A stretch of DNA of 64,000 nt from Dehalococcoidia bacterium (lineage in GTDB: Bacteria > Chloroflexota > Dehalococcoidia > Lucifugimonadales > UBA3495), in contig CBDESR010000005.1 in the NCBI GenBank assembly GCA_965242615.1, positions 1,300,768 to 1,364,767 of the forward strand, written 5' to 3'. The position numbers were made by a program, and so were the translations under genes. A model generated the notes under the pieces. The model was not told the DNA's origin. It saw nothing but the letters and a program-made list of their open reading frames with translations, and ran no database searches. The first letter of the stretch is position 1, and each line of letters opens with the position of its first letter. Shown here one piece after another: positions 13,923-35,254 of this stretch.

Positions 13923-14029
13923 GGCACGAATCGCATACTGGACTGGTTCACCGCAAAGTCGGCACGCAAAAACGCGGTGAGTTGTTGTCTTTGGTTATGG
14001 AGCCGCGGGGGCGGGGGGTGTAGGGGGGA

Positions 14030-19310: not shown

Positions 19311-20009
19311 ATGGCGCAGGATGCGGCGGCGCGGGACTTCGTTAAGTATTCCTTTTATAAGGTGGCGCCGGAGTGGCGGCTGCTGGCACCGGCGGTACGG
19401 GAGCGGAGCAAGGCGGAGTTCGCGGCGGTTCTGGAGGAGTTTGACGACCGGGTGGCTTGGAGCAGCTACAGTATGACGGCGACCCGGGGGGATGTGGACT
19501 TTCTGCTGTGGAAAATCAGTCCGACGCTGGAAGCCATTGACGCGCTGACTGGGCGGCTGAATCATACCGAGTTGGCCGGGTATCTGGATACGCCCCATTC
19601 CTATCTGGCGATGACGCGGCGGTCGCCCTATGTGGCGGAGCATCAGCACCCGGGGCAGGAGGGGACGGGGGCGACGATGCGGATGGTGGGCCGGAAGTAT
19701 CTGTTCGTTTATCCCTTTGTCAAGACGCACGAGTGGTATCAGCGCAGCCAAGAGGAGCGGCAGCGGCTGATGAATGAGCATTTCGAGATTGGGCATCGCT
19801 TCCCGGAGGTGAAAATCAGCACTTCCTATTCCTTTGGGTTGGATGACCAGGAGTTTGTGCTGGGGTTTGAGACGGATGAGCCGGGGGCGTTTCTGGATTT
19901 GGTGATGGCACTGCGGGAGTCGGCGGCGCGGCCCTACACGCTGCGGGACACGCCGATATTTACGGGTTTGCGGAAGTCGGTGCGGGAGTGTTTGGATGGG
20001 GTGGGGTAG
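19311..20009 (+). CDS. Chlorite dismutase-family protein (coproheme decarboxylase ChdC/HemQ-like)
   Basis: ORF 19251..20009, ATG 19311 after AAAGGA. YSFYKV...W, KYLFVYPFVKTHEWY, FGLDDQEFVLGFETD. Confidence 0.8.
   Translation: MAQDAAARDFVKYSFYKVAPEWRLLAPAVRERSKAEFAAVLEEFDDRVAWSSYSMTATRGDVDFLLWKISPTLEAIDALTGRLNHTELAGYLDTPHSYLAMTRRSPYVAEHQHPGQEGTGATMRMVGRKYLFVYPFVKTHEWYQRSQEERQRLMNEHFEIGHRFPEVKISTSYSFGLDDQEFVLGFETDEPGAFLDLVMALRESAARPYTLRDTPIFTGLRKSVRECLDGVG
19841..20009 (+). repeat. Direct repeat copy 1 (3' 169 bp of the ChdC-like gene)
   Basis: 161/169 identical to 22043..22211 in my manual alignment. Confidence 0.9.
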
Positions 20010-20024
20010 GCTAAAGGATACCGC

Positions 20025-21758: not shown

Positions 21759-21817
21759 AGCGCACGACCATCATGTGGATTATTGGGCCAATTATAGCAC
21801 AGCACAGTATAAAAGCA

Positions 21818-21869
21818 GGGGCGCACCCCGCGGGATGCGCCCCCTAATCCATTGCCGGCTGATGGACTG
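21818..21869. repeat. 52-bp hairpin-containing repeat, copy 1
   Basis: GGGGCGCACCCCGCGGGATGCGCCCCCTAATCCATTGCCGGCTGATGGACTG; 50/52 identical to 35255..35306. Contains the 8-bp stem GGGGCGCA/TGCGCCCC. Confidence 0.9.
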
Positions 21870-22042
21870 CCCTCCCAGCAGGTCGACAGTGGTAACGACA
21901 ACGCCCCTTAATCACTGCGCCGGCTAAGACTGTCCTACCTCATCGCTATTGTTGCTCAGCCCACGGCAAGACAGCCCGAATGCCTGGGGCAGGAGGGGAC
22001 GAGTGCCGCCAGCCTTTTACCACCCTGCGTTGCTGGCTGGCG

Positions 22043-22211
22043 GGATGGACAGGAGTTTGTGCCGGGGTTTGAGACGGATGAGCCGGGGGCGTTTCTGGAT
22101 TTGGTGATGGCGCTGCGGGAGTTGGCGGCGCGGCCCTACACGCTGCGGGACACGCCGATATTTACGGGTTTGCGGAAGTCGGTGCGGGAGTGTTTGGAGG
22201 GGGTGGGGTGA
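22043..22211 (+). pseudogene. Orphan 3' fragment of a ChdC-like gene (direct repeat copy 2)
   Basis: Encodes ..QEFVPGFETDEPGAFLDLVMALRELAARPYTLRDTPIFTGLRKSVRECLEGVG* in frame with its own stop but no 5' part. Confidence 0.85.
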
Positions 22212-22237
22212 TGCAGAAAATTCTGCGTAGGCCAACG

Positions 22238-23236
22238 TCAGAACGGAAGGTCGTCAATATCCCTTTCTGCCCTTGCTACGGGGCGCGCAGGCCGCAACAT
22301 TCGCTCGAAATGTGCCTTCAGGTCTTCCATGACCTCTGGCACGTATTCAGGCAACACGCGTTGCGTCCTGGTTATCAGGTTGACCATATCTTGGAAAGAC
22401 CTCCGGGCCTTCGCAGAATCGCCATCTCTCGCACTTCGATAGGCATCCATACCAAGATCGTAAAGCCAAGGCGAACTCTCTTTAAGATCACTAAGCAGCA
22501 CGAGGAAACCGGGAGCACCCGAGAGCCTCATTGCAATCACCCTAGATTGCTCTGACGAAACGAAATATGACCTTCCTTGCGGTATGCGGAGGGCCATTAC
22601 TTCGTCCAGTCTTGCCGAAAGACGACGGAGTTCCCGACTTTCCAGCCTACTGCCTACAATCTCCACCAAGTTTGACAGTTCGCTACGCACTTCAGATATG
22701 GTGGATAGCATATCTGCTATGGTGCGTTGCTCCGGGTCCTCGCTCTGGCGCAATCGTTGGAGGTCTAGGGCAACTGAGATAGGGGTCTCCAAGTCGTTGG
22801 GGTTGGCTTGCAGAGCCTTGACTTGTTCAGCAATGGACGTCTTCGCTTTCGCCACGTTGTCAAGGTCGTGGAGATCGATAAATACCGTTCGATTTCCTGC
22901 AACGTCAAAAGGTATTTCCTCACCCACCCGTATAATTTGCACGAACGGCTTAACTATGGCGTGGCGGAGGGCCAGTTCATAAAATACATTGGGATTCCGG
23001 TCAGTCAGGTCGGCGATGACAAGGTCGTCATCTACGATATGTTGAATTACCTGGCTCGTAATAATGCCAGGCTTGTCGATCTCGTCAGCCCGAGTAGACA
23101 CGTACCCCAGAGGCTCCACCGCCGGGCGAATGATGTGCTGGAGGACTTGATCGGAGTGCTTGCGGATCTCCGAATCAGGCTCACCAATCGGCGCGATAAC
23201 GAAACAGGACTTGCTGCCAGACTCTACCATCATCAT
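22238..23236 (-). CDS. Hypothetical protein with N-terminal TIR-like / nucleoside 2-deoxyribosyltransferase-like Rossmannoid domain and helical C-terminal half
   Basis: CFVIAPIGEPDSEIR...IIRPA...RADEI..PGIIT..VI..I...DLVIADLTDRNPNVFYELALRHA..KP pattern. Confidence 0.45.
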   Translation of the reverse strand: MMMVESGSKSCFVIAPIGEPDSEIRKHSDQVLQHIIRPAVEPLGYVSTRADEIDKPGIITSQVIQHIVDDDLVIADLTDRNPNVFYELALRHAIVKPFVQIIRVGEEIPFDVAGNRTVFIDLHDLDNVAKAKTSIAEQVKALQANPNDLETPISVALDLQRLRQSEDPEQRTIADMLSTISEVRSELSNLVEIVGSRLESRELRRLSARLDEVMALRIPQGRSYFVSSEQSRVIAMRLSGAPGFLVLLSDLKESSPWLYDLGMDAYRSARDGDSAKARRSFQDMVNLITRTQRVLPEYVPEVMEDLKAHFERMLRPARPVARAERDIDDLPF

Positions 23237-23614
23237 CTCCCGTTCGTCTGCCCTTACCTCTGGTCTTACTGGGGTAAAGATGCCGTAAGAATTTATACGG
23301 CCGCCAGATTTTATTATATGTGATTATCGTATGTCAAGCACATTGTGTCCATTTTATAGCCCCGTGCAAAAATCCTCTAGATTTCTTTTCCGTCCACCAA
23401 TGAAGACGAATTCCGCCGTTTTTCGCAGGAATTGTGACGGGGTGGAAATTTTGTGAAGGAGGAGTATTCTGCCTGTTTGGACTTTTGTTGGGGCGATTTC
23501 TATGACCGAATGGCTTATCCACTTGAAGGAACCAAGTGGTATTCAGACCGCGAGATAGAGTACGTTGTGACATCGATAGGGATTTAACCGTGGCTAGTTG
23601 TCCCGCCCTTTTGC

Positions 23615-24475
23615 CTATGGGCTTAGGCCGAAGGTGTTGATCCAGATGAGGGCTGTGGTACGGGATCGTTCTGCCTCAGATTTGGTTATGTTCCACTCTT
23701 GAGAGATGGCGCTGTAAGCATCCTCATCAGTCTGGCTTGCGGTGGCAAGCACACTTTCGATGAATGGTGATGCTTGCAGGGATAAACGAACCCAAGCGTT
23801 GAACTGCTCCTTGGCCAAGCCGGAGGGGATAGCTAATATCCCGACTTCCCTGATGGCGATTTCCTGTTGCTCGAGCGTAGGAATTTCAAGCCCACGCTGC
23901 TGGTATGCCAACCATAGGTAATCCGGATTTCGGGTGAGCGGCTTCCAGCCATCAAAGGATTCTGCGGTGTCTTGCCGTTCCAGCGGCGTATCAGAATGGA
24001 GGGTCGGGATAATCTGGTTCCAAGCATCGAACTCGGCATCGGAGACTTCGTGGGCTTTCAGGAATAGGAGGTGTTCAAACCATTCCGCGTCAAAGTCGGC
24101 CGGAGGTGGGCAAAGGATTTCCACGTTGCCGTTGCCATAAATGCTCATGCCAGCGTTGGTGAGGTTGGCCGAGCCTACCAAGACATTACTGTCGAAGCGG
24201 TAGTACTTGGCGTGAAGCCGGTTGTGGAGCAAAAAAGTTCCGTTGAGGCCCAGCACGAGAGGCCGGCAAGCCAAGTCAGTTGTTCCGGCTTGGATGTCCT
24301 GCGGAGTCCAGCGCGACACGCAGGTTATGCTGGCATCCGGAGCGATGGAGTTCAGGACAAGCGTCAGCGGTTGCTCCTTGATGTAAGGAGCAACTATGAC
24401 TGCTTCTTGGGCGTTGGCACAGGAAGCAGTTAATATTTCCCAGCAAGTGGGGTTATTCGGGAGAGTCGACGACAC
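23615..24475 (-). CDS. Phospholipase D-family (HxK) nuclease
   Basis: LHAKYYRFDSNVLVGSANLTNAG = HxK(x4)D(x6)GSxN (H88 codon at 24214..24212). GTG start overlaps the upstream stop by 23 nt. Confidence 0.8.
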   Translation of the reverse strand: MSSTLPNNPTCWEILTASCANAQEAVIVAPYIKEQPLTLVLNSIAPDASITCVSRWTPQDIQAGTTDLACRPLVLGLNGTFLLHNRLHAKYYRFDSNVLVGSANLTNAGMSIYGNGNVEILCPPPADFDAEWFEHLLFLKAHEVSDAEFDAWNQIIPTLHSDTPLERQDTAESFDGWKPLTRNPDYLWLAYQQRGLEIPTLEQQEIAIREVGILAIPSGLAKEQFNAWVRLSLQASPFIESVLATASQTDEDAYSAISQEWNITKSEAERSRTTALIWINTFGLSP

Positions 24476-26300
24476 CCTCGTCCATCAGCCTGCTTAAGAT
24501 GCGGCCCCATCGCCGACAAGTGTCTTGGAAATCGACTCGGGTTCGCTGGTCCTGGATTTCGTCTTCCATCCGGGCCAAGGCCAAGATGATAAGCCGGAGG
24601 GCACTGGCCGGGCGGCTGTCTTGCTCGTTGTTTTCCGAGCCAGCCTGGTTTTCCAGGAATTCAAGGTAGTCGTATGCCGGGTGATTGATGTTGAGTTTGA
24701 CCACCAATACCCCGGATTGGGAGGTTTCAACTTCAAACACCGCAGAGCCGCTGAGGCTCGCGTTGATGAACTTGTAACGGTATCGGCGTTCTACCGTTAT
24801 CTGGGCCTGCCTCTGGGCTTCCTCTAACGGGAGTCCCGATTCAGTAAGGTCTTTGGTGAGCTCTTCTATTTTCACGGTGTCTTCCACCGTGTCGAAAAGG
24901 TCATCGGTAGGCGTCCGCTCGGACTCTGAGTTGCGGAGAGCTTCCTCAATTGCTTGAGTGCCCAGTTCTTCCGCTTTTTGAACGGTGGTTACCGAGGAGA
25001 TGTCAACCGGACTGGATGGGCGAGGGCGCTGACTGAATTTGCGCTGGATCTCGCGCATCATATAGCGGACGGTGTTCCGGATATGTTCCGCTATGCCGTA
25101 CAGGTCGGTTTCCAGCCCGTCGGTCTCGTCTCGGGCCTCGGTGTCGCCGCTGTCTGACAAGTTCAGGTCTCGAAGTGCCCTGACAAAATGGGACACCGTT
25201 TGTTTGTTGTGGTCTACTCCGAAAAGGTCGTCGCACCCCTCGTTGAATTTTACTTCGCAGCCCCACCACCGGTTCAAAGGATGTGATCCACCTCCTTGGT
25301 CGGTGGTTGCCATGGTGCGGTCCAGAGTTATCTCGCGGTTTTCCCGAATGATGGAAACTCCCATGTTTTTGTTGGCGTGTTGACCGTAGTCGCGCTGGCC
25401 AGGCAGGTCACGGTAATTGCCTAAGGGTTCGCTTTTGACTAAGGAATACGTGACGGTGACGGTCTCCTCTTTGCCGTCAACTATGACGGTAAAATCCTGT
25501 GTGCGGAGGAGGTCGAACATAGGTTGGGCACCCCAGACTCCTGGGGTGTTTGAGGTTGGCATCAGATAAAGGGGATCGTTAGGTCGGACCTGCGCCTCGG
25601 CTATGATGGTGTTGTCCGGTTCCCAGAAGGAAGCCATCCGAATTGTCAAGGATTGGCTGTTGATGTAATGCCGGTAGATCCGCCCGATTTCCTCCTCGAT
25701 ATGTCGGAATACTGTGTCGGATCGCATAGTGATGCGGTCGATGTCGGACCACACTACCAGGGTGCCGCTGGAACTGACATTTTGTTTGGCTAGTTGCAGC
25801 CATTCTTGCGGGACAGGTTGCCGATCGGGAAAGATTAGGGACTGTTGACCGGCTTCCACTTCTTCTATGGATAGATAGGCGTGGTGGGAGCTGTCGGGGC
25901 CGTCTTGCCAGGACCAGACGTCTAATTTCTTGCACTGGGATGCGGACGACGTAGGCAACCCCATGCCATACTTTCCGATGGTTCTGACGCTTTGGAGAGG
26001 CTTGTGGCCTCCGAAGGACAGGGCTAAGGATAACGTCTCGGGAGACATACCTTCACCATTGTCGAGGACGGCGATTTTTTGAATCCGCTGGACGGTCCTG
26101 GTGGGGCCGGGGACTTGGGCTTCTTTAACCAAGAGTTCTACTTGGGAAGCGTTGGCATCAATGGAGTTGTCGATGAGTTCGGCGATGGCGTTGGCAGCAT
26201 GGGGGTAACGGCTGTCCCGGAGGGCCCTTATGAGCATCGCGGGCTGGAAGATGGGATTTGAGTCCGAGGAGCCGCTTTGGATACTTACGTCGGTTGCCAT
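24453..26300 (-). CDS. GHKL-superfamily ATPase, MORC/paraMORC-like
   Basis: ORF 24453..26477; I prefer ATG 26300 (MATDVSIQ), a 16-nt overlap with the helicase stop. N-box ELIDNSIDA, G1 VLDNGEGM, G2 IGKYGMGLPTSS. Confidence 0.8.
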   Translation of the reverse strand: MATDVSIQSGSSDSNPIFQPAMLIRALRDSRYPHAANAIAELIDNSIDANASQVELLVKEAQVPGPTRTVQRIQKIAVLDNGEGMSPETLSLALSFGGHKPLQSVRTIGKYGMGLPTSSASQCKKLDVWSWQDGPDSSHHAYLSIEEVEAGQQSLIFPDRQPVPQEWLQLAKQNVSSSGTLVVWSDIDRITMRSDTVFRHIEEEIGRIYRHYINSQSLTIRMASFWEPDNTIIAEAQVRPNDPLYLMPTSNTPGVWGAQPMFDLLRTQDFTVIVDGKEETVTVTYSLVKSEPLGNYRDLPGQRDYGQHANKNMGVSIIRENREITLDRTMATTDQGGGSHPLNRWWGCEVKFNEGCDDLFGVDHNKQTVSHFVRALRDLNLSDSGDTEARDETDGLETDLYGIAEHIRNTVRYMMREIQRKFSQRPRPSSPVDISSVTTVQKAEELGTQAIEEALRNSESERTPTDDLFDTVEDTVKIEELTKDLTESGLPLEEAQRQAQITVERRYRYKFINASLSGSAVFEVETSQSGVLVVKLNINHPAYDYLEFLENQAGSENNEQDSRPASALRLIILALARMEDEIQDQRTRVDFQDTCRRWGRILSRLMDEGVVDSPE

Positions 26301-27535
26301 ATTTGCTCCCAGTTCTGGAAGGCTTCGGTTATCGAACCGAATTCCAGTAGTTTGGAGTCGAGCAGGGTATAAATCTGACACCTGCGGTTTCCGCCGGATC
26401 GTTCGCCCCGCATCGCCCGTCCTATCATCTGGGAGTATAGGACGAGAGATGTAGTTGGTCTGGCGACTATTACGCAACTGGTGCGCGGAGCATCAAAGCC
26501 TGCGGTTAATACGCCATAGTTTAGCAAAGCCATCGCCTCGGAGTCAATACTCCGGAAGCGGTCGATCGTTGATTGGCGTTGCTCCGATGGGGTACTACCA
26601 GTGATGCTTTCGGCGTGATGTCCCATCCCATTCAGGATGCCGGTGCAGTGATGGACGCTGGCCAGGGATGGGCAGAACACTATGACCCGGCGATGAGTGA
26701 CCAGTGCCCGGGAGGTTACCCGGATTATTTCCTGCTGCCAATTGGGGTCTTGGCCGATTTGGCGTAGGGTTGACCCGGAGTAATCTCGATCCTCGGACAC
26801 ATTCTGAAGCGGCAAGGTCGAGGTCAAGGATATAGGTGTGAACTGTGGGGCAGCCAAGTACCCATTCTTAATGAGATAGGTTACCGGATCAGGGTGTCCT
26901 TTTGGGTCTATAGTTACCTTTTGGAAGTTGAAAAACTCCGCTAGTTGCTGGTCCTGCTCCCCGGGTGTTGCAGAGCGTCCCGGCGTTGCCGTGAGTCCCA
27001 GCAAAGGCGGCTCATAGGTGAGGAGTTGCTTTGTGACGAACTGATAGGTGTTGGCAATGGACTGATGGGCTTCGTCAAATATCACCGCTGCAGCGCGGTC
27101 TGCCAAGTTTATGAGCAATTGCTGGTTGCTCCCGGATACGGAGTAGAGCTTGGCCAATCCAGTAACCAAGAAGCCGGGTTCGTAAGCAATGTCTCTGGCG
27201 TCTCCCCAATAGCGTTGGATGTGGGCCGGGCGGTTGCCCAAATACGACCAAGCAGTCGCGAGATTTTCTGCCGCTTGTTCGCACAGCTCCTCGCTGGCCG
27301 CCAGCCAGATCAGGATTTTTCCTTCGTTGGCCTTCTGGTTCAGAATGTGGCAAGCCACGTGGCAGGCCAACCGGGTCTTGCCGGCGCCGGTAGGCAGATG
27401 GGCAATGGCTCGGGGGCCTGTCCCGAAACGGGGCGGTGTAGTAGGGCACAGGAAATCAAGCAGGTCGTGCATGACCTGCCTCTGATAGGGGTACAGCTGG
27501 TAATTGGGTTGGACTACGTTCGGATTAGATACCAC
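26285..27535 (-). CDS. SF2 DEAD/DEAH-box helicase
   Basis: LPTGAGKT (Walker A), VIFDEAHQS (motif II), GLTATPGR (III), QMIGRAMRG (VI). Confidence 0.85.
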   Translation of the reverse strand: MVSNPNVVQPNYQLYPYQRQVMHDLLDFLCPTTPPRFGTGPRAIAHLPTGAGKTRLACHVACHILNQKANEGKILIWLAASEELCEQAAENLATAWSYLGNRPAHIQRYWGDARDIAYEPGFLVTGLAKLYSVSGSNQQLLINLADRAAAVIFDEAHQSIANTYQFVTKQLLTYEPPLLGLTATPGRSATPGEQDQQLAEFFNFQKVTIDPKGHPDPVTYLIKNGYLAAPQFTPISLTSTLPLQNVSEDRDYSGSTLRQIGQDPNWQQEIIRVTSRALVTHRRVIVFCPSLASVHHCTGILNGMGHHAESITGSTPSEQRQSTIDRFRSIDSEAMALLNYGVLTAGFDAPRTSCVIVARPTTSLVLYSQMIGRAMRGERSGGNRRCQIYTLLDSKLLEFGSITEAFQNWEQIWQPT

Positions 27536-29156
27536 AGACGCCCTCGCATTCGTCGAGCATAATGCTATCGTAATCCGGAGTGTCAGTCAAGTCAATCTCC
27601 GACAAGGGCCGCCGTTCCCGATGCAGGTAGGCATAGCCTTTCCTGCTGATGCCGTTCCTGACGGTTTGGTCGTTGCGGAGGGCGTGGTCAACCAGAATGG
27701 CATCTTGGAAAGACTCAGGGTCATGGTCTTTAAGCCACTTCCATTCAGCGTTGGTGTGGTAAGGGCAGCCGATGCAGGAACTGCGCGGCAAATAGCGGTC
27801 GGGGTAACGTTCCTTGAACCAGATCAACGCTTGGACCCGGCTTATCCCCAGATCTACGAGGGGAAACCGGTTTTCAATCCATTCCTCCTGGCTTTTTTTG
27901 GCCCGTATGGCCTCGTCGGAACTGATACCCATCCAGACTTCGGCATAGACAGGTTTTTGTGCCCGGCGTCCGGGTTGCAGCCCCATGCGTTGACGCAGCA
28001 GGTCGTGAATGGGCTTGATTTTGTACTTGCTGGTGCATTGGCGGCGGGCCAGCGCCGAGCTGCCGTCCGGGTTGGTGATGAAAGCCGGGATGGTCAGGTA
28101 GGGTTTGCCTTCGGGACTGACGCCTTTCAAGATGTTCTCGCGGAGGCTGCCGTTATTGACCCGTACTATCTCAAAGGATACTTGGGATTGCAGCCACTCC
28201 AAGTGTTCGTAGATATGAGGAGGTTCCCATCCGGTGTCGGCGAATATAGCTAGGTCAGGCTTTTCGAGTCCAGAATAGCCTTGCTCGGCCATCAAAGCAA
28301 GAACGGTGGACTGGACGCCGGCACCCAGACTAAGGGACCTGATAGTGGGCGTACGGTTCAGCAACCTTTTGCGGTCGCTGACGAAGTCGGGGTTTGCCAT
28401 AATGTCAGCCAAGTGGGCTTGCAGCAGGCCCCTGATTTCGTCGCGGGGCAAGGCTTCCAGTATTTGCGTGCCGGCGTCGAGGTTGATGCGGCGGAACAGT
28501 TCCATGCCTCCGGCTTCGGCTTTCATGCCTTTGCCTTCATTGAGGAGAGCCCGGACGAATTCTGCTAACAGAATCGGCGAGCGTAGAACAGCGGAGCGGA
28601 GCAGTATGTGGTAATGGACAGCGAACTTGGCAAAGTGTTCCAGAGCCTGTTCTGCGTTGAAGGCTCCGGCCGACGCTTCAGCCGCTTTGACGGCGGTGTG
28701 GGCAATCCACCAGGTCCGGCCGGCTGTGTTGCTGTTCCAAAGGGCGGTTCCCTGGTTCTCTATGAACCAGTGGGCTTTGATGTAGTCCGGCAGATTTGTG
28801 GCCCTGGTGCGACGCCAGCGCTTCAAGCCATAGGCGTGGAGCTTGAAATGGGCCAGCCAAGTCCACATCCTGGTATCGGTCGCGGTTGCTGGAGTGATGC
28901 CCGGCAGGGAATTATAGAAACCCAGCGCTTGCCGATCGGCCAAATTGGCGTTGCCGGAACTGACCGGTTCCAAGATGAGAGGATGGATGGTGTTGATTCC
29001 CGTTTCCTCTGTCGTGCGGGTTACGCCCTCGGCGGCGAGGATTTCGGCAAAGTCGGTTTCGGGATTAAGGTAGGTTTCCGGACTCTGCTCGGCTACCAAC
29101 CGGAGGCAGTCGTAAGCCTCTTGGGTTAGTTTGAGGATGGGGAAACCTGCTGACAT
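27525..29156 (-). CDS. PAPS-reductase-like PP-loop enzyme (DndC/IbrA-like) with about 265-aa uncharacterised N-terminal domain
   Basis: aa 274-284 SLSLGAGVQST (variant of the SGGxDS PP-loop), RRQCTSKYKIKP, C-terminal CIGCPYH. The N-domain is Trp-rich helical (RMWTWLAHFKLH..., RTWWIAHTAV). Confidence 0.7.
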   Translation of the reverse strand: MSAGFPILKLTQEAYDCLRLVAEQSPETYLNPETDFAEILAAEGVTRTTEETGINTIHPLILEPVSSGNANLADRQALGFYNSLPGITPATATDTRMWTWLAHFKLHAYGLKRWRRTRATNLPDYIKAHWFIENQGTALWNSNTAGRTWWIAHTAVKAAEASAGAFNAEQALEHFAKFAVHYHILLRSAVLRSPILLAEFVRALLNEGKGMKAEAGGMELFRRINLDAGTQILEALPRDEIRGLLQAHLADIMANPDFVSDRKRLLNRTPTIRSLSLGAGVQSTVLALMAEQGYSGLEKPDLAIFADTGWEPPHIYEHLEWLQSQVSFEIVRVNNGSLRENILKGVSPEGKPYLTIPAFITNPDGSSALARRQCTSKYKIKPIHDLLRQRMGLQPGRRAQKPVYAEVWMGISSDEAIRAKKSQEEWIENRFPLVDLGISRVQALIWFKERYPDRYLPRSSCIGCPYHTNAEWKWLKDHDPESFQDAILVDHALRNDQTVRNGISRKGYAYLHRERRPLSEIDLTDTPDYDSIMLDECEGVCGI

Positions 29157-29159
29157 TTT

Positions 29160-30008
29160 CTACTCCGTTTCCGCAACGTTGGTCACGCTGGTCAAGAGCC
29201 GGCCTATAGGCGCCTCCAGTATGATTTGGGCATAGTGGGGCGCATTGCGGCGGATGCTTTCGGCATCGTGGTCTATTTTATACCGTTCCAGCGCGGATTG
29301 TATAGCTTGGGACCAGAGGGATTCCGGGTAATCTTGGTAGCAGTGGAGCGCTTGGGTGACTACGTTCAAATAGAACGCGGAGATTAGGGCTGCCTGCCCC
29401 ATTTTGCTGTGGGTCTGGCTTCTTACCCGTTCCAGTGTGATTTTATCTACGGGATTGACGTAGATTTTTATTCGGTCGGAATTGAAGTCCAACTCGTATA
29501 AACCGGGCTTGGTAGCGGGATTTGGCACCAAGTCAATCACCGAGCTGGCATTGGTTTCCTTGATGATGACTCGCTTTGAGGCTGCGACGGCCAAGATGGC
29601 TCCCCGGGGCAGGTCAAAACCTTCAGGCTTCAGTTCCCGTATTTCCGGGTTATGTTCAGGGGCTTGGAAATCGGATACCGGCTTGACGGTGATGATATAT
29701 GGGGTGACGACTATTTCGTCGGCGTAGTTTTCCGCGGGCAGCGAGAGGTAATGCTGCCGGTTCTGTCCCGAGAGGTGCAGCTCTCGGCTATAAGTGCGGA
29801 CGCACGTGGTTTGTACCGCGTAATCTGCTCCTCCTTGACCAATCAAGGATTGCAGGGTTTCGCTGTTCAGCAAATACTCCAGCGTAAGGTTGATTACCTC
29901 CCCGTTGCTGAGTACGCTGTTGCGCACTTGGCAACTGAAGCCCGATTGGGGGTAATCGTCGGTATCATCCGACAGGAGCGGGTAGGGCAGGAGGCGTTGA
30001 CGCCACAT
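29160..30008 (-). CDS. Hypothetical protein (282 aa), operon member
   Basis: Clean ORF, 3-nt and 9-nt gaps to its neighbours; no motif I recognise. Confidence 0.5.
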   Translation of the reverse strand: MWRQRLLPYPLLSDDTDDYPQSGFSCQVRNSVLSNGEVINLTLEYLLNSETLQSLIGQGGADYAVQTTCVRTYSRELHLSGQNRQHYLSLPAENYADEIVVTPYIITVKPVSDFQAPEHNPEIRELKPEGFDLPRGAILAVAASKRVIIKETNASSVIDLVPNPATKPGLYELDFNSDRIKIYVNPVDKITLERVRSQTHSKMGQAALISAFYLNVVTQALHCYQDYPESLWSQAIQSALERYKIDHDAESIRRNAPHYAQIILEAPIGRLLTSVTNVAETE

Positions 30009-30017
30009 ATACGTTAC

Positions 30018-31787
30018 CTATTCCGGCTGTAGAGTGAAAGCCATCCGGCTGATGTCTTGCCCGGCAGTAATTTTAAGCCGGACGCGTTCGTTAGGTTTGG
30101 TGGTCAGGGTAATGGCGCCCGCCTCCACTTGTATTGGCTCTTCGGGGCGGTCGAGGCTCTCGGCGCTGATGATGAGTAGAGGGGTATCATTCTTTCTTTC
30201 ACCCCCGGTCGGAAACAGCTTTACCGTGGTACTGCCGGCCTGCATAGCAGTGAAACCGACGACCGCTTCGTTGACGCCGGTACAGACGACCCGTTGATCC
30301 TTCAGCGCCGGCGGATGGTGGTCGTCTAATAAGCTTGGAGCCAGGGGTCGCAACATAGATGAAACTCCTGACCTGATTTCCACCGTAGTCAGGTTGCGTT
30401 CCTTAGTTTCTTCTGCATACTGCTCCGGCAAAGCGTATGCCAGTTCAGTCAAGTTGCTGACGCCCGGATACTCAGAGATGTCGAATATCTCCTCGTAGGT
30501 CACGTTCAAAGTGTTTCTGGCGTGGGTCAAAGTCGCTTCGGCAAATTGACGCTCACTGGCCTCCGCGATTTTCTCCGAAGTGATGGCGTCGTGTCCCGGG
30601 TTTTCCATACTGCGGAGCCAAGCATCGCCCTCATTTGTTGCCGGGATGACAACGGCGGCGTAGTCGGGCCAATAGCTATGGTTTGGCGGAGAGAGCGGGT
30701 TGTGCTTGCGCTCCCGGCTGTCGGTAATGAGCATACCGTTGCGGTTCAGGCAAGCCGTTCGCCGGGGACCTTCTCCTTTGAGGATATATGCTTTCAGGAC
30801 TCCCAGTGGCGAGTCCGTTGATACGCTCGTCGCGGTTCGATCGCGGATTGCCCGATAGTAAGCGTAGGAGGAGCTGTTGCTGGCTAAGGCAAAGTGCTGG
30901 TCGAGGGTCTCGTGGTTAATGAGTACCGACGGTTGTTCCGGCTGCCCCTGGATGGCAACCGTCAAATCCTGATTGTGGATCGCAAAGAAATAGTTTTCGA
31001 TGACGGCCAAGACAGCGGTTGCGACCCAATTGGAGCACCGCGGGTTGAAACCGAGAATAAACACGCCGGTGCCGGTCTCTGCCAGTCGGAAGCAGGAAGG
31101 TATTTCCGTTCCGCGCAGTGGTCGGCCGGATGCCGTACGGTAGAATCCGATGTGCTGGAGCGGCGTAGGCTTCGCTTCAGGCAAGGCGTGAGTTATCAGG
31201 CGGCTCTTTCCTTGCGTCTTTTCTTCGCGTCCTTGTCGCCGGGCCAAGTACCGCGTCGAGTATATGACGGAATACAGGTCACTGACATTGAAAACAGCGT
31301 TCTTGCCCATCCCGTAAGAACCGCCGGCGGCGTTTTTGTCCTTGCGGACTATCCCTTCTTGGGTTACCAGAGCATTCCATTTCTCGCCGACCAGCCCGGT
31401 TGTGCCGGTATCGACAACGCTGAGACAAGGGATGGTCGGGTTATCGATGCAGTTTAGGGCTTTGGCATAGGCAGCTACGGCATCGGTCTCGTTCCGTGCT
31501 TTGGTAATTTCCAAGCAAGCTGCGATGTGGGCGGAGAGCGCCGGGCCGCCCATGGCATCAGTAGGCACTTCGACCTCAGTAAAGGTCAAGTGAACTGGTT
31601 GAATCAGCCCATCAACTTTGGCATCCAGCGCGTTCTGGAGCAGCTCGCGCACCAAGTGGACCATCGGGGAGGCTTGAAAATGCGCGGCGGCGGCGTTTTC
31701 GAAGCCGTATTCGACGCCATCGTTGTTGGGCGGGAACTGCCAAGTGGCCTGCTGTTTGGGAGATGCAGTCAAAATCATTTGCTCCAA
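30018..31787 (-). CDS. GHKL-superfamily ATPase (HSP90/sacsin-like N-terminal module) with large C-terminal region
   Basis: RELLQNALDA (N-box), VVDTGTTGL (G1), GGSYGMGKNA (G2). The start may be ATG 31778. Confidence 0.65.
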   Translation of the reverse strand: MEQMILTASPKQQATWQFPPNNDGVEYGFENAAAAHFQASPMVHLVRELLQNALDAKVDGLIQPVHLTFTEVEVPTDAMGGPALSAHIAACLEITKARNETDAVAAYAKALNCIDNPTIPCLSVVDTGTTGLVGEKWNALVTQEGIVRKDKNAAGGSYGMGKNAVFNVSDLYSVIYSTRYLARRQGREEKTQGKSRLITHALPEAKPTPLQHIGFYRTASGRPLRGTEIPSCFRLAETGTGVFILGFNPRCSNWVATAVLAVIENYFFAIHNQDLTVAIQGQPEQPSVLINHETLDQHFALASNSSSYAYYRAIRDRTATSVSTDSPLGVLKAYILKGEGPRRTACLNRNGMLITDSRERKHNPLSPPNHSYWPDYAAVVIPATNEGDAWLRSMENPGHDAITSEKIAEASERQFAEATLTHARNTLNVTYEEIFDISEYPGVSNLTELAYALPEQYAEETKERNLTTVEIRSGVSSMLRPLAPSLLDDHHPPALKDQRVVCTGVNEAVVGFTAMQAGSTTVKLFPTGGERKNDTPLLIISAESLDRPEEPIQVEAGAITLTTKPNERVRLKITAGQDISRMAFTLQPE

Positions 31788-31804
31788 CAGTATATGGATA
31801 AGCC

Positions 31805-31833
31805 AGTTTAAGTAATCCAGCGCGGAATTGCAA
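31805..31833 (-). promoter_or_regulatory. Putative promoter of the six-gene operon
   Basis: Minus strand: TTGCAA (31833..31828), 17-nt spacer, TAAACT (31810..31805). Confidence 0.3.
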
Positions 31834-32113
31834 GGATAACAAGAAGATACCCGTTTCAGGTCCTATTCACTGTTATTGACTGGTGGGATAAAAGGGTAGC
31901 GCTTGAGCAAAGGGAGGGTCTCGATTGGCGTAGCAGTGCGGCTGTAAGCTGCCTAGTCCGCCTAGCGGATGATGGGTTATACCGGCAAGGGTAAGCGGTT
32001 CTGGAACGAGGCGGCGGGATAATTGGCTGGAGGCGGGGCTGAGCCGGCCGGCTGGCTTGTTGCAGCACGGTGGAGGGCTTGGGGGTGATTGGCCGGCTGG
32101 CAGTTGCTCCTGA

Positions 32114-32398
32114 TTAGAGCTCGATATTTTCGAGGAAGTCCAGCCACGGCGGCGGCCAAGCGGCGGGCTCGCCAGTTTCCGTGGTGGTTGGAGCCGGGGT
32201 GCCGCCCGAGGATTGGGCGGCTAGTTGACGGCCAATATCGTTCCAAGCTGCGGCAATGTCCAGATAGTACGGGATGGCGGCTTGGTCGGCCGGTTGTTCC
32301 GTCGCTATGTTCAGGGCGAAGGCCAGAGCGTTGACGGTGCCGATGGCGGCCAGGGCGGCCGGCGCCGGCAGGGCGATGAACTGGTTGGCCCGGGTCAT
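32114..32398 (-). CDS. Hypothetical protein (94 aa)
   Basis: ATGA overlap with the upstream 150-aa ORF; no recognisable motif. Confidence 0.4.
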   Translation of the reverse strand: MTRANQFIALPAPAALAAIGTVNALAFALNIATEQPADQAAIPYYLDIAAAWNDIGRQLAAQSSGGTPAPTTTETGEPAAWPPPWLDFLENIEL

Positions 32399-32847
32399 GG
32401 GCCGGGACTCCAGCAGGCGTCCAATGCGTTCAAGTCCTGCTGGTCCGGGCGGGTGGTCGCGACTAGGGCGTTCAGGAAGGTCTGCGGGTTCTGTACGAAG
32501 TACTCCAGTCCCAGGTCGGTGACGGCCTGGCGTTGGCCGGCGGCTTGGGCCTGTTGGCTCAGTTCCGGGACCTCGGCGTAGGCGACGCTGCGCGCGATGC
32601 GAAGCATATAGCTGGCTTTGGCCTCCCGGCCGGCAGCGCTGCCCTGTTCTATGACGATGCGCAACAGGTTGGCAGCGTGTTCCTCCTGTTGCTGGTCCAA
32701 GTCGGCGATGTAGCGTTGCAGCAGCAGGTCGATTTCGGCCCGGGGCTGGTCGGACAGAGCTAAACCGGTAATGGCTTGGGCAATGCTGCTTGCCCGGGCA
32801 CTTACGGCGTTGGGCTGGTAGCGGCTGGGGATGTTTTCGTATGGCAT
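32395..32847 (-). CDS. Hypothetical protein (150 aa)
   Basis: Coupled to 32114..32398; helical-looking; no recognisable motif. Confidence 0.4.
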   Translation of the reverse strand: MPYENIPSRYQPNAVSARASSIAQAITGLALSDQPRAEIDLLLQRYIADLDQQQEEHAANLLRIVIEQGSAAGREAKASYMLRIARSVAYAEVPELSQQAQAAGQRQAVTDLGLEYFVQNPQTFLNALVATTRPDQQDLNALDACWSPGP

Positions 32848-33192
32848 GGCTTTGGTTCGAGGATAGGCCGTTGGCTGCCGGAGATTATAGTCCGCTGGCT
32901 GGGTGCGGTCAAGGAATGGGATTATGGAGAGGGTAGTCCGTGGTTTGAGCCTTTAATTTGGTGGTTTCTTTACCGGTTGCTCAGGTGGGAGCTGATTATT
33001 CCGGCTGAGAGCGCCATTCCAAAAGTTCTGCTGGCTGCTTCGGTGAAAGTCAGTCTTTCTGGCCGGAGAGCGCCGGGCATCGTTTTGGTCAACCAACAAA
33101 AACATTTCAGGAATGCATTTATGAGTGTTGGCTTTTCCCGGTTCTACCTTGCCAGTCATTAATCTTGGGAAGCTCTGTGGGCCGGGACCGCT

Positions 33193-33333
33193 TTACGGCC
33201 GTTGCCGTGGCCGGTTCCAGTAAGGGTTTTTGCACTTGGGGCAAACCTTGGGTTCAGCTATGGACTTTCGGTTCGGCACCCATTCGTGGCCGCAGCGTTC
33301 GCAGCGGTATCCGATGACGGTGATGATTGCCAT
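33193..33333 (-). CDS. Small zinc-ribbon protein (46 aa), below the ORF-track cutoff
   Basis: Manual translation gives MAIITVIGYRCERCGHEWVPNRKSIAEPKVCPKCKNPYWNRPRQRP* with a GGAGGAACC RBS 5 nt upstream. Two CxxC pairs. Confidence 0.5.
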   Translation of the reverse strand: MAIITVIGYRCERCGHEWVPNRKSIAEPKVCPKCKNPYWNRPRQRP

Positions 33334-33561
33334 TAAGGTTCCTCCGATGGCTTCTCTATTTTCCTGATAGTATCATAGTATAAGGGTATCCCTTTGGAGT
33401 GCTTGGGGAAAGTTCTTGCAGGGGTCGGATTCGCCAAGTTTCATAGCGGGACGGGATCCTGCCATTAAAATCAGCGGGGTTTCCGGTCGATAATTTACCC
33501 GCAAGGAAACTGACATAAAATTCGTCCATTTCACTCTTGACTTCGGTTGCCGCACTAATGT

Positions 33562-34959: not shown

Positions 34960-35254
34960 GCGCGGGTCGCGGAATCGTGTCCGGGCAAGCGATTAGTCGA
35001 CTGTCCCAGTCGATCGGAGCAGGCTGAAGGCAGGTCGGGGTAGTCTGGGTGTTTGATCTGGACAAGAACTTTATGTTTTACGGGGCGTCTTAAAGACGTC
35101 CTGAATTTTTGTGGGGCGATGCCAGTGTTTTCAGGTTATGTGGAATTACGGAATTCGTCACAATGGGTTAATAATTTTCTTGGAGTGCTGATTTTTGCAC
35201 GGAGCTAATTTTAGGAATTGCGAGCAAAACTTTGATTACACAAGAATTATGTAT

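What the first reader, a model, noticed from the sequence alone, without database searches (positions are those of the whole stretch)
22238..23236. TIR/NDT-like Rossmannoid domain protein flanking the operon
The N-terminal 110 aa follow the pattern CFVIAPIG....R......V...II.PA...G....RADEI...G.I...VI..I...DLVIADLT..NPNVFYELALRHA. I associate this pattern with nucleoside 2-deoxyribosyltransferase-like/TIR-like domains. Those domains act on NAD or nucleotides in conflict systems. It is followed by a long helical region. The gene lies 378 bp downstream of the PLD gene in the same orientation, so it may be a separate single-gene effector or a seventh component.
Basis: inference. Interest (0 to 1): 0.55.

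Follow-up and report, generated by a model that had tools for sequence, protein, structure and literature searches.

The report
Stand-alone TIR/NDT-like immune effector gene
This gene encodes a single protein with an enzyme domain of the TIR/nucleoside-deoxyribosyltransferase type, the kind that cuts NAD or nucleotides in anti-virus immunity, joined to a helical probable sensor part; it belongs to a very large uncharacterised family, works independently of the neighbouring six-gene operon, and carries an unexpected tail that looks like the tip of the bacterial single-strand-DNA-binding protein.

Summary
An ORF of 332 aa (probably 330 aa) lies on the minus strand at 22238-23236 and carries the quoted motif. 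All 74 N-terminal domains tested match PADLOC's CBASS 'TIR' effector model (best E 3e-15). The best PDB sequence match is DNPH1/Rcl, which aligns invariant Glu87 with its catalytic Glu. The AlphaFold model's best fold matches are NDT, MilB, DNPH1 and TIR-STING. No Pfam or NCBIfam model covers the family, although it has about 19,000 clusters at 50% identity.

It is not a seventh operon component. It has its own strong promoter. None of 76 genome loci of homologues shares a neighbour with it. None of 40 loci holding the helicase-HATPase-PLD core contains it. Homologues sit in restriction-modification/toxin-antitoxin islands, on plasmids and antisense in prophage early regions. Some lie next to SLATT proteins or ThsB-TIR plus caspase genes, and some are fused to TPR, PAS or zinc-ribbon modules.

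In the window the gene lies on a 13.4 kb strain-variable island.

My best reading is a single-gene sensor-effector that cleaves NAD+ or a nucleotide when activated.

The new lead is a conserved tail ending DDLPF/W in its subclade. This resembles the SSB C-terminal tip and also occurs on a DUF4062 TIR-like protein.

The parts
23308..23337 (-). Sigma-70-type promoter-like site, TTGACA-18 nt-TAAAAT (11 of 12), about 70 nt upstream of the start codon
   Evidence: promoter scan; sequence. It lies in the AT-richer 378-bp spacer (GC 0.51 for 23001-24000).
23237..23241 (-). Shine-Dalgarno GGGAG, 6 nt before the third ATG (23230), which is the start used by database protein P0001
22238..23236 (-). Coding sequence of the TIR/NDT-like protein (332 codons from the first ATG; probably 330 aa from 23230; stop codon 22238-22240)
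22802..23212 (-). N-terminal Rossmannoid catalytic domain (residues 9-145: b1 9-14, a1 23-43, b2 45-49, a2 56-69, b3 72-77, a3 84-93, b4 98-103, b5 117-120)
   Evidence: AlphaFold2 model; Foldseek hits to NDT, MilB, DNPH1 and TIR; PADLOC TIR effector model.
22976..22978 (-). Codon of Glu87 (GAA), the predicted catalytic glutamate at the N-terminus of helix a3. It sits in the invariant block N81-P-N83-V84-x-Y86-E87.
   Evidence: Invariant in 43 close homologues and in 74 diverse homologues. Aligned to the catalytic Glu of DNPH1/Rcl.
22589..22864 (-). Helical stalk/linker (residues 125-216). The first part (PISVxLDLQxLRQS) is conserved; the rest is variable and has low pLDDT.
22295..22555 (-). 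C-terminal five-helix bundle (residues 228-314) with the PWLYxxGMxAYR motif. It is the predicted sensor or oligomerisation module. No known fold was matched.
   Evidence: pLDDT 90-97. Best Foldseek E-value against the PDB is about 1. In relatives this position is replaced by TPR, PAS_6 or zinc-ribbon modules.
22241..22261 (-). C-terminal tail DIDDLPF: an acidic stretch ending in LPF, resembling the SSB C-terminal tip
   Evidence: The tail is conserved after a variable linker in 15 of the 120 closest homologues. 7 of 84 family ORFs carry it against 1 of 1281 other ORFs, and that one is a DUF4062 TIR-like protein. The phage SA13 SSB ends DFSDLPF.
21817..21844 (-). First terminator-like hairpin downstream of the gene (12-bp stem plus a T-run). 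It is the duplicated aconitase terminator at the island's edge.
21870..35254 (.). The 13.4 kb strain-variable island. It carries the target, the six-gene operon and an IS transposase, and is flanked by 52-nt direct repeats (21818-21869 and 35255-35306).
   Evidence: Relatives L091 and L093 (about 95.6% nucleotide identity) join the aconitase gene directly to the ATPase gene. GC is lower here, 0.51-0.57 against 0.60-0.64.

Best explanation
The gene encodes a stand-alone, single-protein sensor-effector of the TIR/NDT (TIR-DrHyd) superfamily.

Shown:
- The N-terminal Rossmannoid domain has an invariant Glu87 on helix a3, inside a block of invariant polar residues (D76, N81, N83, Y86, E87, D111; nearly invariant R49, D51, T60, Q62, R91, H92).
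- A helical stalk follows, then a compact C-terminal helical bundle that relatives exchange for TPR, PAS or zinc-ribbon modules.
- The gene has its own promoter.
- It has no conserved gene partner.
- It has a patchy distribution across Bacteria and Archaea and occurs on plasmids and in prophages.
- It lies on a strain-variable island.

Inferred:
- The resting protein is inactive.
- A phage-derived cue, perceived by the C-terminal bundle and/or the SSB-like DDLPF tail, drives oligomerisation of the N-terminal domains.
- The oligomer forms competent active sites in which Glu87 catalyses cleavage of an N-glycosidic bond. NAD+ is the most likely substrate (NADase, as in TIR-STING, TIR-SAVED, SARM1 and Swarozyc). 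A nucleotide or deoxynucleotide, as for DNPH1 or MilB, is the alternative.
- Depletion of that metabolite aborts the infection.
- The gene acts independently of the adjacent PDC-M33-like operon.
For: Domain assignment:
- PADLOC 'TIR' effector model: E=3.6e-7 for the window protein; 74 of 74 family N-terminal domains match, best 3e-15.
- PF05014 sub-threshold hits in 6 of 74 domains and in phage homologues.
- DNPH1/Rcl alignment with Glu on Glu.
- AlphaFold2 plus Foldseek top hits are NDT, MilB, DNPH1 and TIR-STING. The BFVD full-length hit is a 'CMP/hydroxymethyl CMP hydrolase' at E=8e-11.

Active-site conservation.

Modularity, which suggests a sensor: TPR, PAS_6 and zinc-ribbon variants; plasmid homologues annotated 'TRAFs-binding domain-containing protein'.

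Independence from neighbours:
- Promoter at 11 of 12 matches.
- No neighbour family shared by more than 8 of 76 loci, and none adjacent in more than 4.
- 0 of 40 loci with the operon core contain the gene.

Conflict context:
- The window island is absent from relatives at 95.6% identity.
- Homologues lie inside a type I restriction-modification operon next to HicB and an IS; next to a type ISP restriction enzyme plus toxin-antitoxin genes; and in an RHS array.
- They are adjacent to SLATT 2TM proteins in 4 loci and to ThsB-TIR plus caspase genes in 2-3 loci.
- They are encoded antisense to lytic genes in temperate Staphylococcus and Streptococcus phages.

Mechanistic analogy from the literature:
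- Swarozyc is a TIR-like domain plus helical stalk plus auxiliary sensor domain. It is activated by the phage portal and depletes NAD+ (bioRxiv 10.64898/2026.05.01.722283).
- The retron Ec86 effector uses an NDT-like domain (bioRxiv 10.1101/2023.08.16.553469).
- Firmicute phage 'distinct TIR' genes with SLATT neighbours were noted by Iyer et al. 2022 (PMC9503650).
Against: - No biochemical or phage-challenge data exist for any member.
- The window protein passes no curated Pfam or NCBIfam threshold.
- The sequence link to solved NDT structures is marginal (E 0.04-0.15).
- The NDT/DNPH1 catalytic Asp (Rcl D69) aligns with Val63, so the chemistry may differ from classic NDT enzymes.
- About a third of the inspected contexts are plain housekeeping neighbourhoods, and many immediate neighbours are metabolic genes. 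I did not quantify enrichment in defence islands.
- The substrate (NAD+ or a nucleotide), the activation by oligomerisation and the sensing role of the C-terminal part are all inferred by analogy.
- The C-terminal bundle has no structural relative.
Confidence: 0.55

Rival explanations
1. It is a nucleotide N-glycosidase of the DNPH1/MilB/BcmB type. It hydrolyses a (deoxy)nucleoside monophosphate, possibly a modified one such as hydroxymethyl-dCMP from phage DNA metabolism, and not NAD+. The role could be defence by nucleotide depletion or nucleotide-pool sanitation.
For: The best Foldseek matches are NDT, MilB (hmCMP hydrolase), DNPH1 and BcmB. The only PDB sequence hit is DNPH1/Rcl. The only Pfam hits in the family are to PF05014. 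The full-length viral structural match is labelled CMP/hydroxymethyl CMP hydrolase. Two immediate neighbours in homologue loci are ribonucleotide reductase small subunits, and one is a class II RNR.
Against: The DNPH1/NDT catalytic Asp is not conserved (V63). The strongest and only universal sequence match is to a TIR-labelled immune effector model. The variable sensor-like C-terminal modules and the contexts with SLATT, ThsB-TIR and caspase genes are typical of immune NADases or signal generators, not of salvage enzymes.
Confidence: 0.22
2. It is a signal-generating enzyme like ThsB and not the killing effector. On sensing phage it makes an ADP-ribose-derived messenger that activates an effector encoded elsewhere, for example a SLATT pore.
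For: Family members are adjacent to SLATT_3+SLATT_1 2TM proteins in L022, L049, L052 and L060, and to ThsB-TIR and caspase genes in L019, L035 and L080. Iyer et al. 2022 predict that SLATT is regulated by ADPr derivatives made by the adjacent TIR (PMC9503650).
Against: No SLATT, SLOG, Macro or other known receptor of ADPr-derived signals was found among the 20 ORFs annotated around the window gene. Most of the 76 loci have no recurrent partner at all.
Confidence: 0.12
3. It is a seventh, accessory component of the neighbouring six-gene PDC-M33-like / helicase / HATPase / PLD operon, co-transcribed by read-through.
For: It has the same orientation, lies 378 bp downstream, and no terminator-like hairpin was found between the PLD gene and the target. 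Both sit on the same 13.4 kb island.
Against: The gene has its own 11-of-12 promoter and Shine-Dalgarno. None of 76 genome loci and none of 6 annotated contigs of homologues carry any operon gene next to it; the only case is one HATPase homologue 4 kb away in L021. None of 40 loci with the HATPase-helicase(-PLD) core contain a relative of the target, although the helicase is present in 37 and the PLD in 27.
Confidence: 0.05
4. It is a catalytically inactive nucleotide-binding sensor or adaptor, or a housekeeping protein unrelated to conflict.
For: Some TIR/DrHyd/SLOG domains are non-catalytic sensors (PMC9503650). Two of six inspected contexts are purely housekeeping.
Against: The putative catalytic Glu and about ten surrounding polar residues are invariant across phyla. 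The distribution is sparse and patchy, with plasmid and prophage copies. The gene is absent from close relatives of the window genome at this locus.
Confidence: 0.06

Closest known systems
CBASS 'TIR' effector family represented by PADLOC model PDLC00733
   Same: The catalytic domain is homologous. The window protein matches at E=3.6e-7, and 74 of 74 family N-terminal domains match, best 3e-15, over model positions about 256-378 of 388.
   Different: In the model the domain is C-terminal; here it is N-terminal and followed by a helical stalk and bundle. No CD-NTase/SMODS cyclase gene is in the neighbourhood. The model's own biochemistry could not be looked up here.
Nucleoside 2-deoxyribosyltransferase / DNPH1 (Rcl) / MilB / BcmB family (Pfam PF05014, clan Nribosyltransf)
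   Same: The fold is the same (top Foldseek hits, target TM-score 0.55-0.66). The glutamate at the start of helix a3 aligns with the catalytic Glu.
   Different: The window protein is below Pfam thresholds, with no hit; relatives reach at most 18 bits against a cutoff of 28.8. The Asp partner of the catalytic Glu aligns with Val63. There is an extra C-terminal region of 190 residues. The context is mobile and conflict-related, not nucleotide salvage.
Swarozyc (DUF4062 TIR-like NADase with helical stalk and auxiliary sensor domain; bioRxiv 10.64898/2026.05.01.722283)
   Same: The single-protein architecture is the same: N-terminal TIR-like domain with a catalytic Glu, a helical stalk and a C-terminal auxiliary domain. 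It also occurs in defence islands. A DUF4062 protein in locus L010 carries the same kind of SSB-like tail, DDDDIPF.
   Different: It is a different sequence family: no PF13271 hit and no hhalign similarity to a DUF4062 sequence. The C-terminal domain is unrelated, and the trigger is unknown.
Firmicute-phage 'distinct TIR' genes with SLATT neighbours (Iyer, Burroughs, Anantharaman, Aravind 2022, PMC9503650)
   Same: Homologues of the N-terminal domain (36-42% identity, E down to 1e-28) occur in temperate Staphylococcus and Streptococcus phages. SLATT genes are adjacent to family members in 4 genome loci. This is probably the same clade that those authors call a distinct version of TIR.
   Different: I could not confirm identity with their examples (Javan281, SN10). 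The phage copies I inspected (SA13, SM1, Javan37) have no SLATT next to them, and neither has the window gene. Their assignment is computational only.
Retron-Eco1 (Ec86) NDT-like effector
   Same: It is an NDT-like N-glycosidase domain used as an anti-phage effector and activated in an oligomeric assembly (bioRxiv 10.1101/2023.08.16.553469).
   Different: There is no reverse transcriptase or msr/msd RNA nearby: Rfam finds nothing in 19000-24500 and no RT domain appears. No PADLOC retron-effector model was matched.
Thoeris ThsB (PF08937)
   Same: It is a TIR-like fold, and ThsB-type genes sit beside some family members.
   Different: There is no PF08937 hit, no hhalign similarity, and no ThsA in the window.

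Membership tests
NDT / DNPH1 family (Pfam PF05014) | Score above the Pfam gathering threshold for PF05014 | tested here: not met
   The window protein has no hit even at E<=5. Only 6 of 74 relatives hit, best E=2.1e-4; phage homologues reach 17-18 bits against a cutoff of 28.8.
NDT / DNPH1 family (Pfam PF05014) | Flavodoxin-like/Rossmannoid fold with parallel sheet, superposable on NDT structures | tested here: met
   AlphaFold2 model plus Foldseek: the top 10 PDB hits are NDT or MilB, with E about 2e-3 and target TM-score 0.47-0.66. The E-values are modest.
NDT / DNPH1 family (Pfam PF05014) | Catalytic glutamate nucleophile at the N-terminus of the helix after strand 3 (E98 in LlNDT, Glu of GYELG in Rcl) | tested here: met
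   Glu87 aligns with the Rcl Glu in phmmer and hmmsearch alignments. It is invariant in 43 and in 74 sequences.
NDT / DNPH1 family (Pfam PF05014) | Conserved Asp on helix 2 (Rcl D69 / NDT D72) that positions the sugar | tested here: not met
   The three Rcl chains differ at this position (D in 2khz, A in 2klh, N in 4fyh). In one search it aligns with Val63. The neighbouring invariant residues are T60 and Q62.
NDT / DNPH1 family (Pfam PF05014) | Glycosidase/transferase activity on (deoxy)nucleosides or nucleotides | not testable with these tools
   This needs enzymology.
TIR domain NADases (Pfam TIR_2, ThsB_TIR, DUF4062; PADLOC TIR effectors) | Significant match to a curated TIR profile | tested here: inconclusive
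   No Pfam TIR, ThsB_TIR or DUF4062 hit. The PADLOC model PDLC00733, labelled TIR, matches all 74 N-terminal domains, best 3e-15. The label is the database's own and I did not verify it.
TIR domain NADases (Pfam TIR_2, ThsB_TIR, DUF4062; PADLOC TIR effectors) | Catalytic Glu after strand C and a TIR-like fold | tested here: met
   TIR-STING, SARM1 TIR and MyD88 TIR are among the Foldseek hits, at E 4e-3 to 4e-2. Glu87 is invariant.
TIR domain NADases (Pfam TIR_2, ThsB_TIR, DUF4062; PADLOC TIR effectors) | NAD+ cleavage that depends on oligomerisation | not testable with these tools
   Inferred by analogy only.
CBASS system | A CD-NTase (SMODS) cyclase gene in the same operon as the effector | tested here: not met
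   No SMODS/CD-NTase was found among 20 annotated ORFs around the gene or among the 135 immediate neighbours of homologues (only the top families are listed there).
Thoeris | ThsA (SIR2/SLOG or Macro/TM) next to a ThsB TIR gene | tested here: not met
   No ThsA-type hit in the window. ThsB_TIR genes are adjacent only in L019, L035 and L080.
TIR-SLATT two-gene modules | Adjacent SLATT 2TM gene | tested here: not met
   Absent in the window. Present in 4 of 76 homologue loci.
Swarozyc (DUF4062) | PF13271 DUF4062 domain | tested here: not met
   No hit. The hhalign probability against a DUF4062 sequence is 0.9%.
PDC-M33-like six-gene operon (as a seventh component) | Conserved co-occurrence with the operon genes | tested here: not met
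   0 of 40 operon-core loci contain it. 0 of 76 loci and 0 of 6 contigs of homologues carry the operon next to it.

The most novel reading that the evidence does not exclude
The conserved C-terminal tail (acidic residues followed by LPF or LPW) is a functional mimic of the SSB C-terminal tip. It either tethers the TIR/NDT-like enzyme to the SSB interactome at replication or recombination intermediates, or acts as a bait that phage SSB-tail-binding proteins engage. In both cases the result would be a switch from autoinhibited to active N-glycosidase. The occurrence of the same tail on an unrelated DUF4062 (Swarozyc-type) TIR-like protein would then make 'SSB-tail decoys' a recurrent sensing principle of TIR-type immunity.
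Probability: 0.2. Interest if true: 0.75.

Novelty: new variant of a known kind. Interest (0 to 1): 0.5.

Why it matters
TIR and NDT-like N-glycosidases are central executioners and signal generators of immunity from bacteria to humans. This gene is a representative of a very large clade of that superfamily: about 19,000 clusters at 50% identity, found in Bacteria, Archaea, plasmids and prophages. The clade has no Pfam or NCBIfam model and no experimental characterisation, so it is invisible to standard annotation. Its active-site constellation differs from that of classic NDT enzymes.

The clade is a tractable single-gene candidate defence system. Its exchangeable C-terminal sensors (helical bundle, TPR, PAS, zinc ribbon) could show how TIR-type enzymes are coupled to different triggers. 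The SSB-tip-like tail, shared with a DUF4062 TIR-like protein, gives a concrete and testable hypothesis for what is sensed.

For this window, the result settles a practical point: the gene should not be counted as part of the six-gene operon.

Tried and rejected
1. Direct Pfam and NCBIfam scans of the full protein and of the N-terminal domain, up to E=5, gave no hit.
2. A profile of 43 full-length homologues against PDB sequences gave only spurious coiled-coil matches. A profile of 74 N-terminal domains recovered only the marginal DNPH1/Rcl hit.
3. A separate AlphaFold2 model of the C-terminal bundle (pLDDT 84.5) was searched against the PDB. Nothing scored better than E about 1, so the fold stays unassigned. 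My impression from the sequence motif that it is TPR-like is not supported by the search.
4. hhalign of the N-terminal-domain profile against single DUF4062 and ThsB_TIR sequences gave no similarity. Single-sequence templates make this a weak test.
5. Rfam on 19000-24500 found no RNA element.
6. All-against-all clustering of 1365 ORFs from 81 loci found no conserved partner.
7. My first idea was that the AAA_15/21 ATPase gene (20025-21758) was a cassette inserted into HemQ between 167-nt repeats. I rejected it after comparison with relatives: the ATPase is ancestrally adjacent to aconitase, and the 13.4 kb segment carrying the target is the insertion.
8. The 79-aa ORF at 23334-23573 in the spacer has no family hit and overlaps the promoter, so I treat it as spurious.
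9. A first scan of metagenome contigs with the single HATPase protein found nothing. The scan with an alignment worked.
10. I could not identify the organism. The closest genome-collection homologues are Dehalococcoidia MAGs.
Full report
OBSERVATION

The translation contains the quoted motif: CFVIAPIGEPDSEIRKHSDQVLQHIIRPAVEPLGYVSTRADEIDKPGIITSQVIQHIVDDDLVIADLTDRNPNVFYELALRHA. Three ATG codons open the ORF. A GGGAG Shine-Dalgarno at 23241-23237 is best spaced for the third ATG (23230), which is also where the identical database protein P0001 (330 aa) starts. The distance to the upstream, same-strand gene with a weak PLD signature (23615-24475; PLDc_2 E=1.3e-3, DrmC E=2.8e-5) is 378 bp, as reported.

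THE PROTEIN

Neither Pfam nor NCBIfam recognises it, not even the N-terminal domain alone at E<=5. Three other lines converge on the assignment.

(i) PADLOC's CBASS effector model PDLC00733, described as TIR, matches residues 26-146 at E=3.6e-7. When 74 N-terminal domains from phylogenetically diverse homologues were scanned one by one, all 74 matched this model, best 3.1e-15. Nothing else matched more than two of them. In the same set, 6 of 74 gave sub-threshold hits to PF05014 Nuc_deoxyrib_tr, best 2.1e-4. Two phage homologues did as well.

(ii) Against all PDB sequences the only relevant hit is DNPH1/Rcl, an NDT-family dNMP N-glycosidase. The hit is marginal: E=0.04 for the single sequence and 0.15 for the profile. 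The alignment puts YELA (Y86-A89) on GYELG, so Glu87 falls on the catalytic glutamate.

(iii) An AlphaFold2 model built on 43 homologues has mean pLDDT 79.5, with the block means for residues 21-50 at 90-97 and lower values (63-87) in parts of the rest of the N-terminal domain. It shows b1 (9-14), a1, b2 (45-49), a2, b3 (72-77), a3 (84-93), b4 (98-103) and b5 (117-120), followed by helices up to residue 314. Foldseek against the PDB ranks Chroococcidiopsis NDT, MilB, TIR-STING, DNPH1, BcmB and the SARM1 and MyD88 TIR domains on top. E-values are 2e-3 to 4e-2 and target TM-scores 0.5-0.66. Against viral models the best hit is a full-length 303-aa protein labelled CMP/hydroxymethyl CMP hydrolase (E=8e-11), followed by NDT- and TIR-labelled proteins.

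Whether the clade is nearer to TIR or to NDT/DrHyd is not resolved.

ACTIVE SITE

Across 74 N-terminal domains at 41-70% identity, the invariant residues are C11, F12, I59, D76, N81, N83, V84, Y86, E87, P109, F110, D111 and P152. Nearly invariant residues include R25, R49, D51, T60, Q62, R91, H92 and R116. [quoted passage not shown] Iyer et al. place the diagnostic active-site residues of the TIR-DrHyd-SLOG clade in exactly that position (PMC9503650). The Asp that partners the Glu in NDT and DNPH1 (Rcl D69) aligns with Val63. This is therefore not a classic NDT active site.

C-TERMINAL HALF

Residues 125-216 form a stalk of long helices. The first part is conserved (PISVxLDLQxLRQS); the rest is variable and has low confidence. 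Residues 228-314 form a compact five-helix bundle with pLDDT 90-97 and the motif PWLYxxGMxAYR. A dedicated model of this bundle finds no structural relative in the PDB, best E about 1.

In other family members the same N-terminal domain is followed by TPR arrays (L053, 610 aa), a PAS_6 domain (L078), a zinc ribbon (the archaeal L066) or shorter helical regions. Some plasmid homologues are annotated 'TRAFs-binding domain-containing protein'. A constant enzymatic head joined to exchangeable tails is the usual layout of sensor-effector immune proteins.

THE TAIL

The window protein ends in ...AERDIDDLPF. Among the 120 closest database homologues, 15 end in an acidic stretch followed by LPF or LPW (for example SDADDLPW, EKDDDLPF, VEPDDLPF), after a linker of unrelated sequence and length.

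Over the 1365 ORFs of all fetched loci, the pattern [DE][DE][LIVM]P[FW]-COOH occurs 8 times. Seven of these are family members. The eighth, L010 17228-18187 ending DDDDIPF, is a DUF4062 protein (PF13271, E=1e-15), which is a member of the recently described Swarozyc family of TIR-like NADases.

From my own knowledge, the motif has the form of the SSB C-terminal tip, which is DDDIPF in E. coli. Searches of the paper library that combined SSB-tail terms with anti-phage defence or TIR-domain terms found no paper describing such a tail on a TIR-type immune protein.

This is the most novel lead, but its function is untested. An alternative is a cis-acting autoinhibitory peptide that docks on the protein's own helical bundle.

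IS IT PART OF THE OPERON?

No, on four grounds.

(a) A TTGACA-18-TAAAAT promoter-like site (11 of 12 matches) lies at 23337-23308, about 70 nt upstream of the start, in an AT-richer spacer. No terminator-like hairpin separates it from the PLD gene, so read-through cannot be excluded.

In the 80 best loci, of which 76 had a callable homologue, clustering of all neighbouring ORFs found no family shared by more than 8 loci and none adjacent in more than 4. No operon gene recurs, except one HATPase homologue 4 kb away in L021.

(c) From the operon side, 40 metagenomic loci have a relative of the HATPase. The helicase is present in 37 of them and the PLD in 27. The target is in none.

(d) Six annotated contigs of the closest homologues show the gene as a solo unit.

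CONTEXT

The picture is mixed but leans clearly towards conflict and mobile contexts. Close homologues lie in these places:
- inside a type I restriction-modification operon next to an IS and HicB;
- after a type ISP restriction enzyme, among toxin-antitoxin genes, MazG and Lit;
- inside an RHS toxin array;
- near AbiEi and DUF433 genes;
- in two plain housekeeping neighbourhoods.

Among 135 immediate neighbours, the most frequent Pfam families are SLATT_1/DUF4231 (4), SLATT_3 (3), ribonucleotide reductase small chain (2) and ThsB_TIR (2); all other families are singletons. The rest are largely metabolic singletons. SLATT_3+SLATT_1 proteins flank the gene in L022, L049, L052 and L060. In L019 and L035 the gene heads a tight operon with one or two ThsB-TIR genes and a caspase. 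Two loci carry two paralogues.

The N-terminal domain also occurs in 60 phage records, in temperate Staphylococcus, Streptococcus and other Firmicute phages, at E down to 1e-28. The weaker matches in Klebsiella phages cover only about 30% of the domain. In SA13, SM1 and Javan37 the gene is encoded antisense to the surrounding early lytic genes, which is the classic position of prophage 'moron' immunity genes. It is on 88 plasmids. [quoted passage not shown] 2022 noted in Firmicute phages, often with SLATT. I could not verify identity with their examples.

THE WINDOW'S ISLAND

Two related assemblies (L091 and L093, about 95.6% nucleotide identity) join the aconitase gene directly to the AAA_15/21 ATPase gene. 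In the window, 13.4 kb (about 21870-35254) is inserted exactly after the aconitase terminator hairpin, and 52 nt of that hairpin are duplicated at both ends: 35255-35306 and 21818-21869, 96% identical.

The insert carries an IS transposase, the six-gene operon, the target and a 167-nt orphan copy of the 3' end of a chlorite-dismutase/HemQ-like gene (22043-22209). The intact copy of that gene lies at 19251-20009. GC content is lower across the insert.

The target and the operon therefore travel on the same variable island, but the family-wide data show that they are independent modules.

MECHANISM

What is shown: a TIR/NDT-type fold, an invariant Glu with a surrounding polar constellation, a modular C-terminus, autonomous transcription signals, a sparse mobile distribution and strain-variable presence.

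What is inferred: the protein is an inducible N-glycosidase. By analogy with TIR-STING, TIR-SAVED, SARM1 and Swarozyc, I take NAD+ as the most likely substrate and oligomerisation driven by the C-terminal sensor as the switch. Swarozyc has the same layout of head, stalk and auxiliary domain and is activated by the phage portal. The outcome would be metabolite depletion and abortive infection.

A DNPH1/MilB-like nucleotide substrate is a serious alternative, because the best structural matches are NDT-family enzymes. A ThsB-like signalling role fits the members paired with SLATT better than it fits this solo gene.

NOVELTY AND SCORE

The kind of system, a TIR/NDT-like single-protein immune effector, is known. 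This particular clade is uncharacterised, is not covered by Pfam or NCBIfam, and is very large: 19,002 representatives at 50% identity at E<=1e-3, 8,193 at <=1e-10 and 1,594 at <=1e-30. Its active-site make-up differs from classic NDT enzymes. Its subclade in the window has an SSB-tip-like tail that recurs on a DUF4062 protein.

I rate it a new variant of a known kind, with interest 0.5. The domain call itself would not surprise a specialist. The size of the unannotated family and the tail motif are worth follow-up.

Noticed in passing
window 21818-21869 and 35255-35306; island about 21870-35254: A 52-nt direct repeat (96% identical) containing the aconitase terminator hairpin flanks a 13.4 kb insertion: IS transposase, six-gene operon, target and a HemQ fragment. 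The insertion is absent from two relatives at about 95.6% nucleotide identity, where aconitase and the ATPase gene are 113 nt apart.
   Followed up: yes
window 19841-20007 and 22043-22209: A 167-nt direct repeat (96% identical). One copy is the 3' end of the intact chlorite-dismutase/HemQ-like gene (19251-20009, + strand). The other is an orphan 50-aa fragment abutting the target's stop codon. Relatives carry a 49-nt remnant of it after the ATPase gene. The rearrangement history is unresolved.
   Followed up: partly
window 20025-21758 (-): A 577-aa AAA_15/AAA_21 ATPase with AriA-, GajA-, OLD- and MAD3-like hits, below equivalog cutoffs. In relatives it is conserved next to aconitase, so it predates the island. 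It has its own TATAAT just after the duplicated hairpin.
   Followed up: partly
L010 17228-18187 (-) (Bryobacterales MAG OZ241997.1): A 318-aa DUF4062 (Swarozyc-type TIR-like) protein ending SSDDDDIPF. It has an SSB-tip-like tail like the target's and lies 6.4 kb from that locus's copy of the target family.
   Followed up: partly
L019 189-3030 and L035 579-2947: A tight same-strand operon: family member, one or two ThsB_TIR-like genes (about 136 aa each) and a caspase (Peptidase_C14). It occurs in a Bacteroidia MAG and a Planctomycetota MAG. L080 has a ThsB_TIR gene upstream.
   Followed up: partly
L022, L049, L052, L060: Proteins of about 300 aa with SLATT_3+SLATT_1 (DUF4231) two-transmembrane domains lie directly adjacent to family members, in a Methanobacteriaceae archaeon and three actinomycetes.
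   Followed up: partly
L088 5998-6648 (Staphylococcus phage SA13 gp16); L089 4492-5151 (Streptococcus phage SM1 gp11); L090 3498-4193 (Javan37_0053): Homologues of about 220 aa in temperate phages are encoded antisense to the early lytic genes. In SA13 the gene lies between the SSB/Erf/Gam recombination module and the replication module. In SM1 two further antisense genes (gp7, gp14) carry DUF4145.
   Followed up: partly
L094-L133 (metagenome loci): The HATPase_c_3 protein of the operon co-occurs with the helicase in 37 of 40 loci and with the PLD-like protein in 27 of 40. Gene order is sometimes rearranged, and DUF6339/M33C-like hits appear in a few loci. Helicase-HATPase-PLD looks like the conserved core of that system.
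   Followed up: no
window 12222-17031 (-): An Eco57I/N6_Mtase-like methylase (566 aa) is followed upstream by a 726-aa protein with a weak Eco57I hit and a 310-aa protein with no family hit. They lie next to a full-length RecQ (9954-12173). This may be a second restriction- or BREX-like module outside the island.
   Followed up: no
window 23334-23573 (-): A 79-aa ORF in the spacer between the PLD gene and the target has no family hit and overlaps the target's promoter. It is probably not a gene.
   Followed up: partly
L079 (5024-5980 and 9896-10879); L062 (4471-5694 and 9986-10735): Two paralogues of the family lie within 5 kb of each other in the same locus. In L014, L022, L029 and L031 the gene appears split into two ORFs, which could be frameshifts or pseudogenes.
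   Followed up: no
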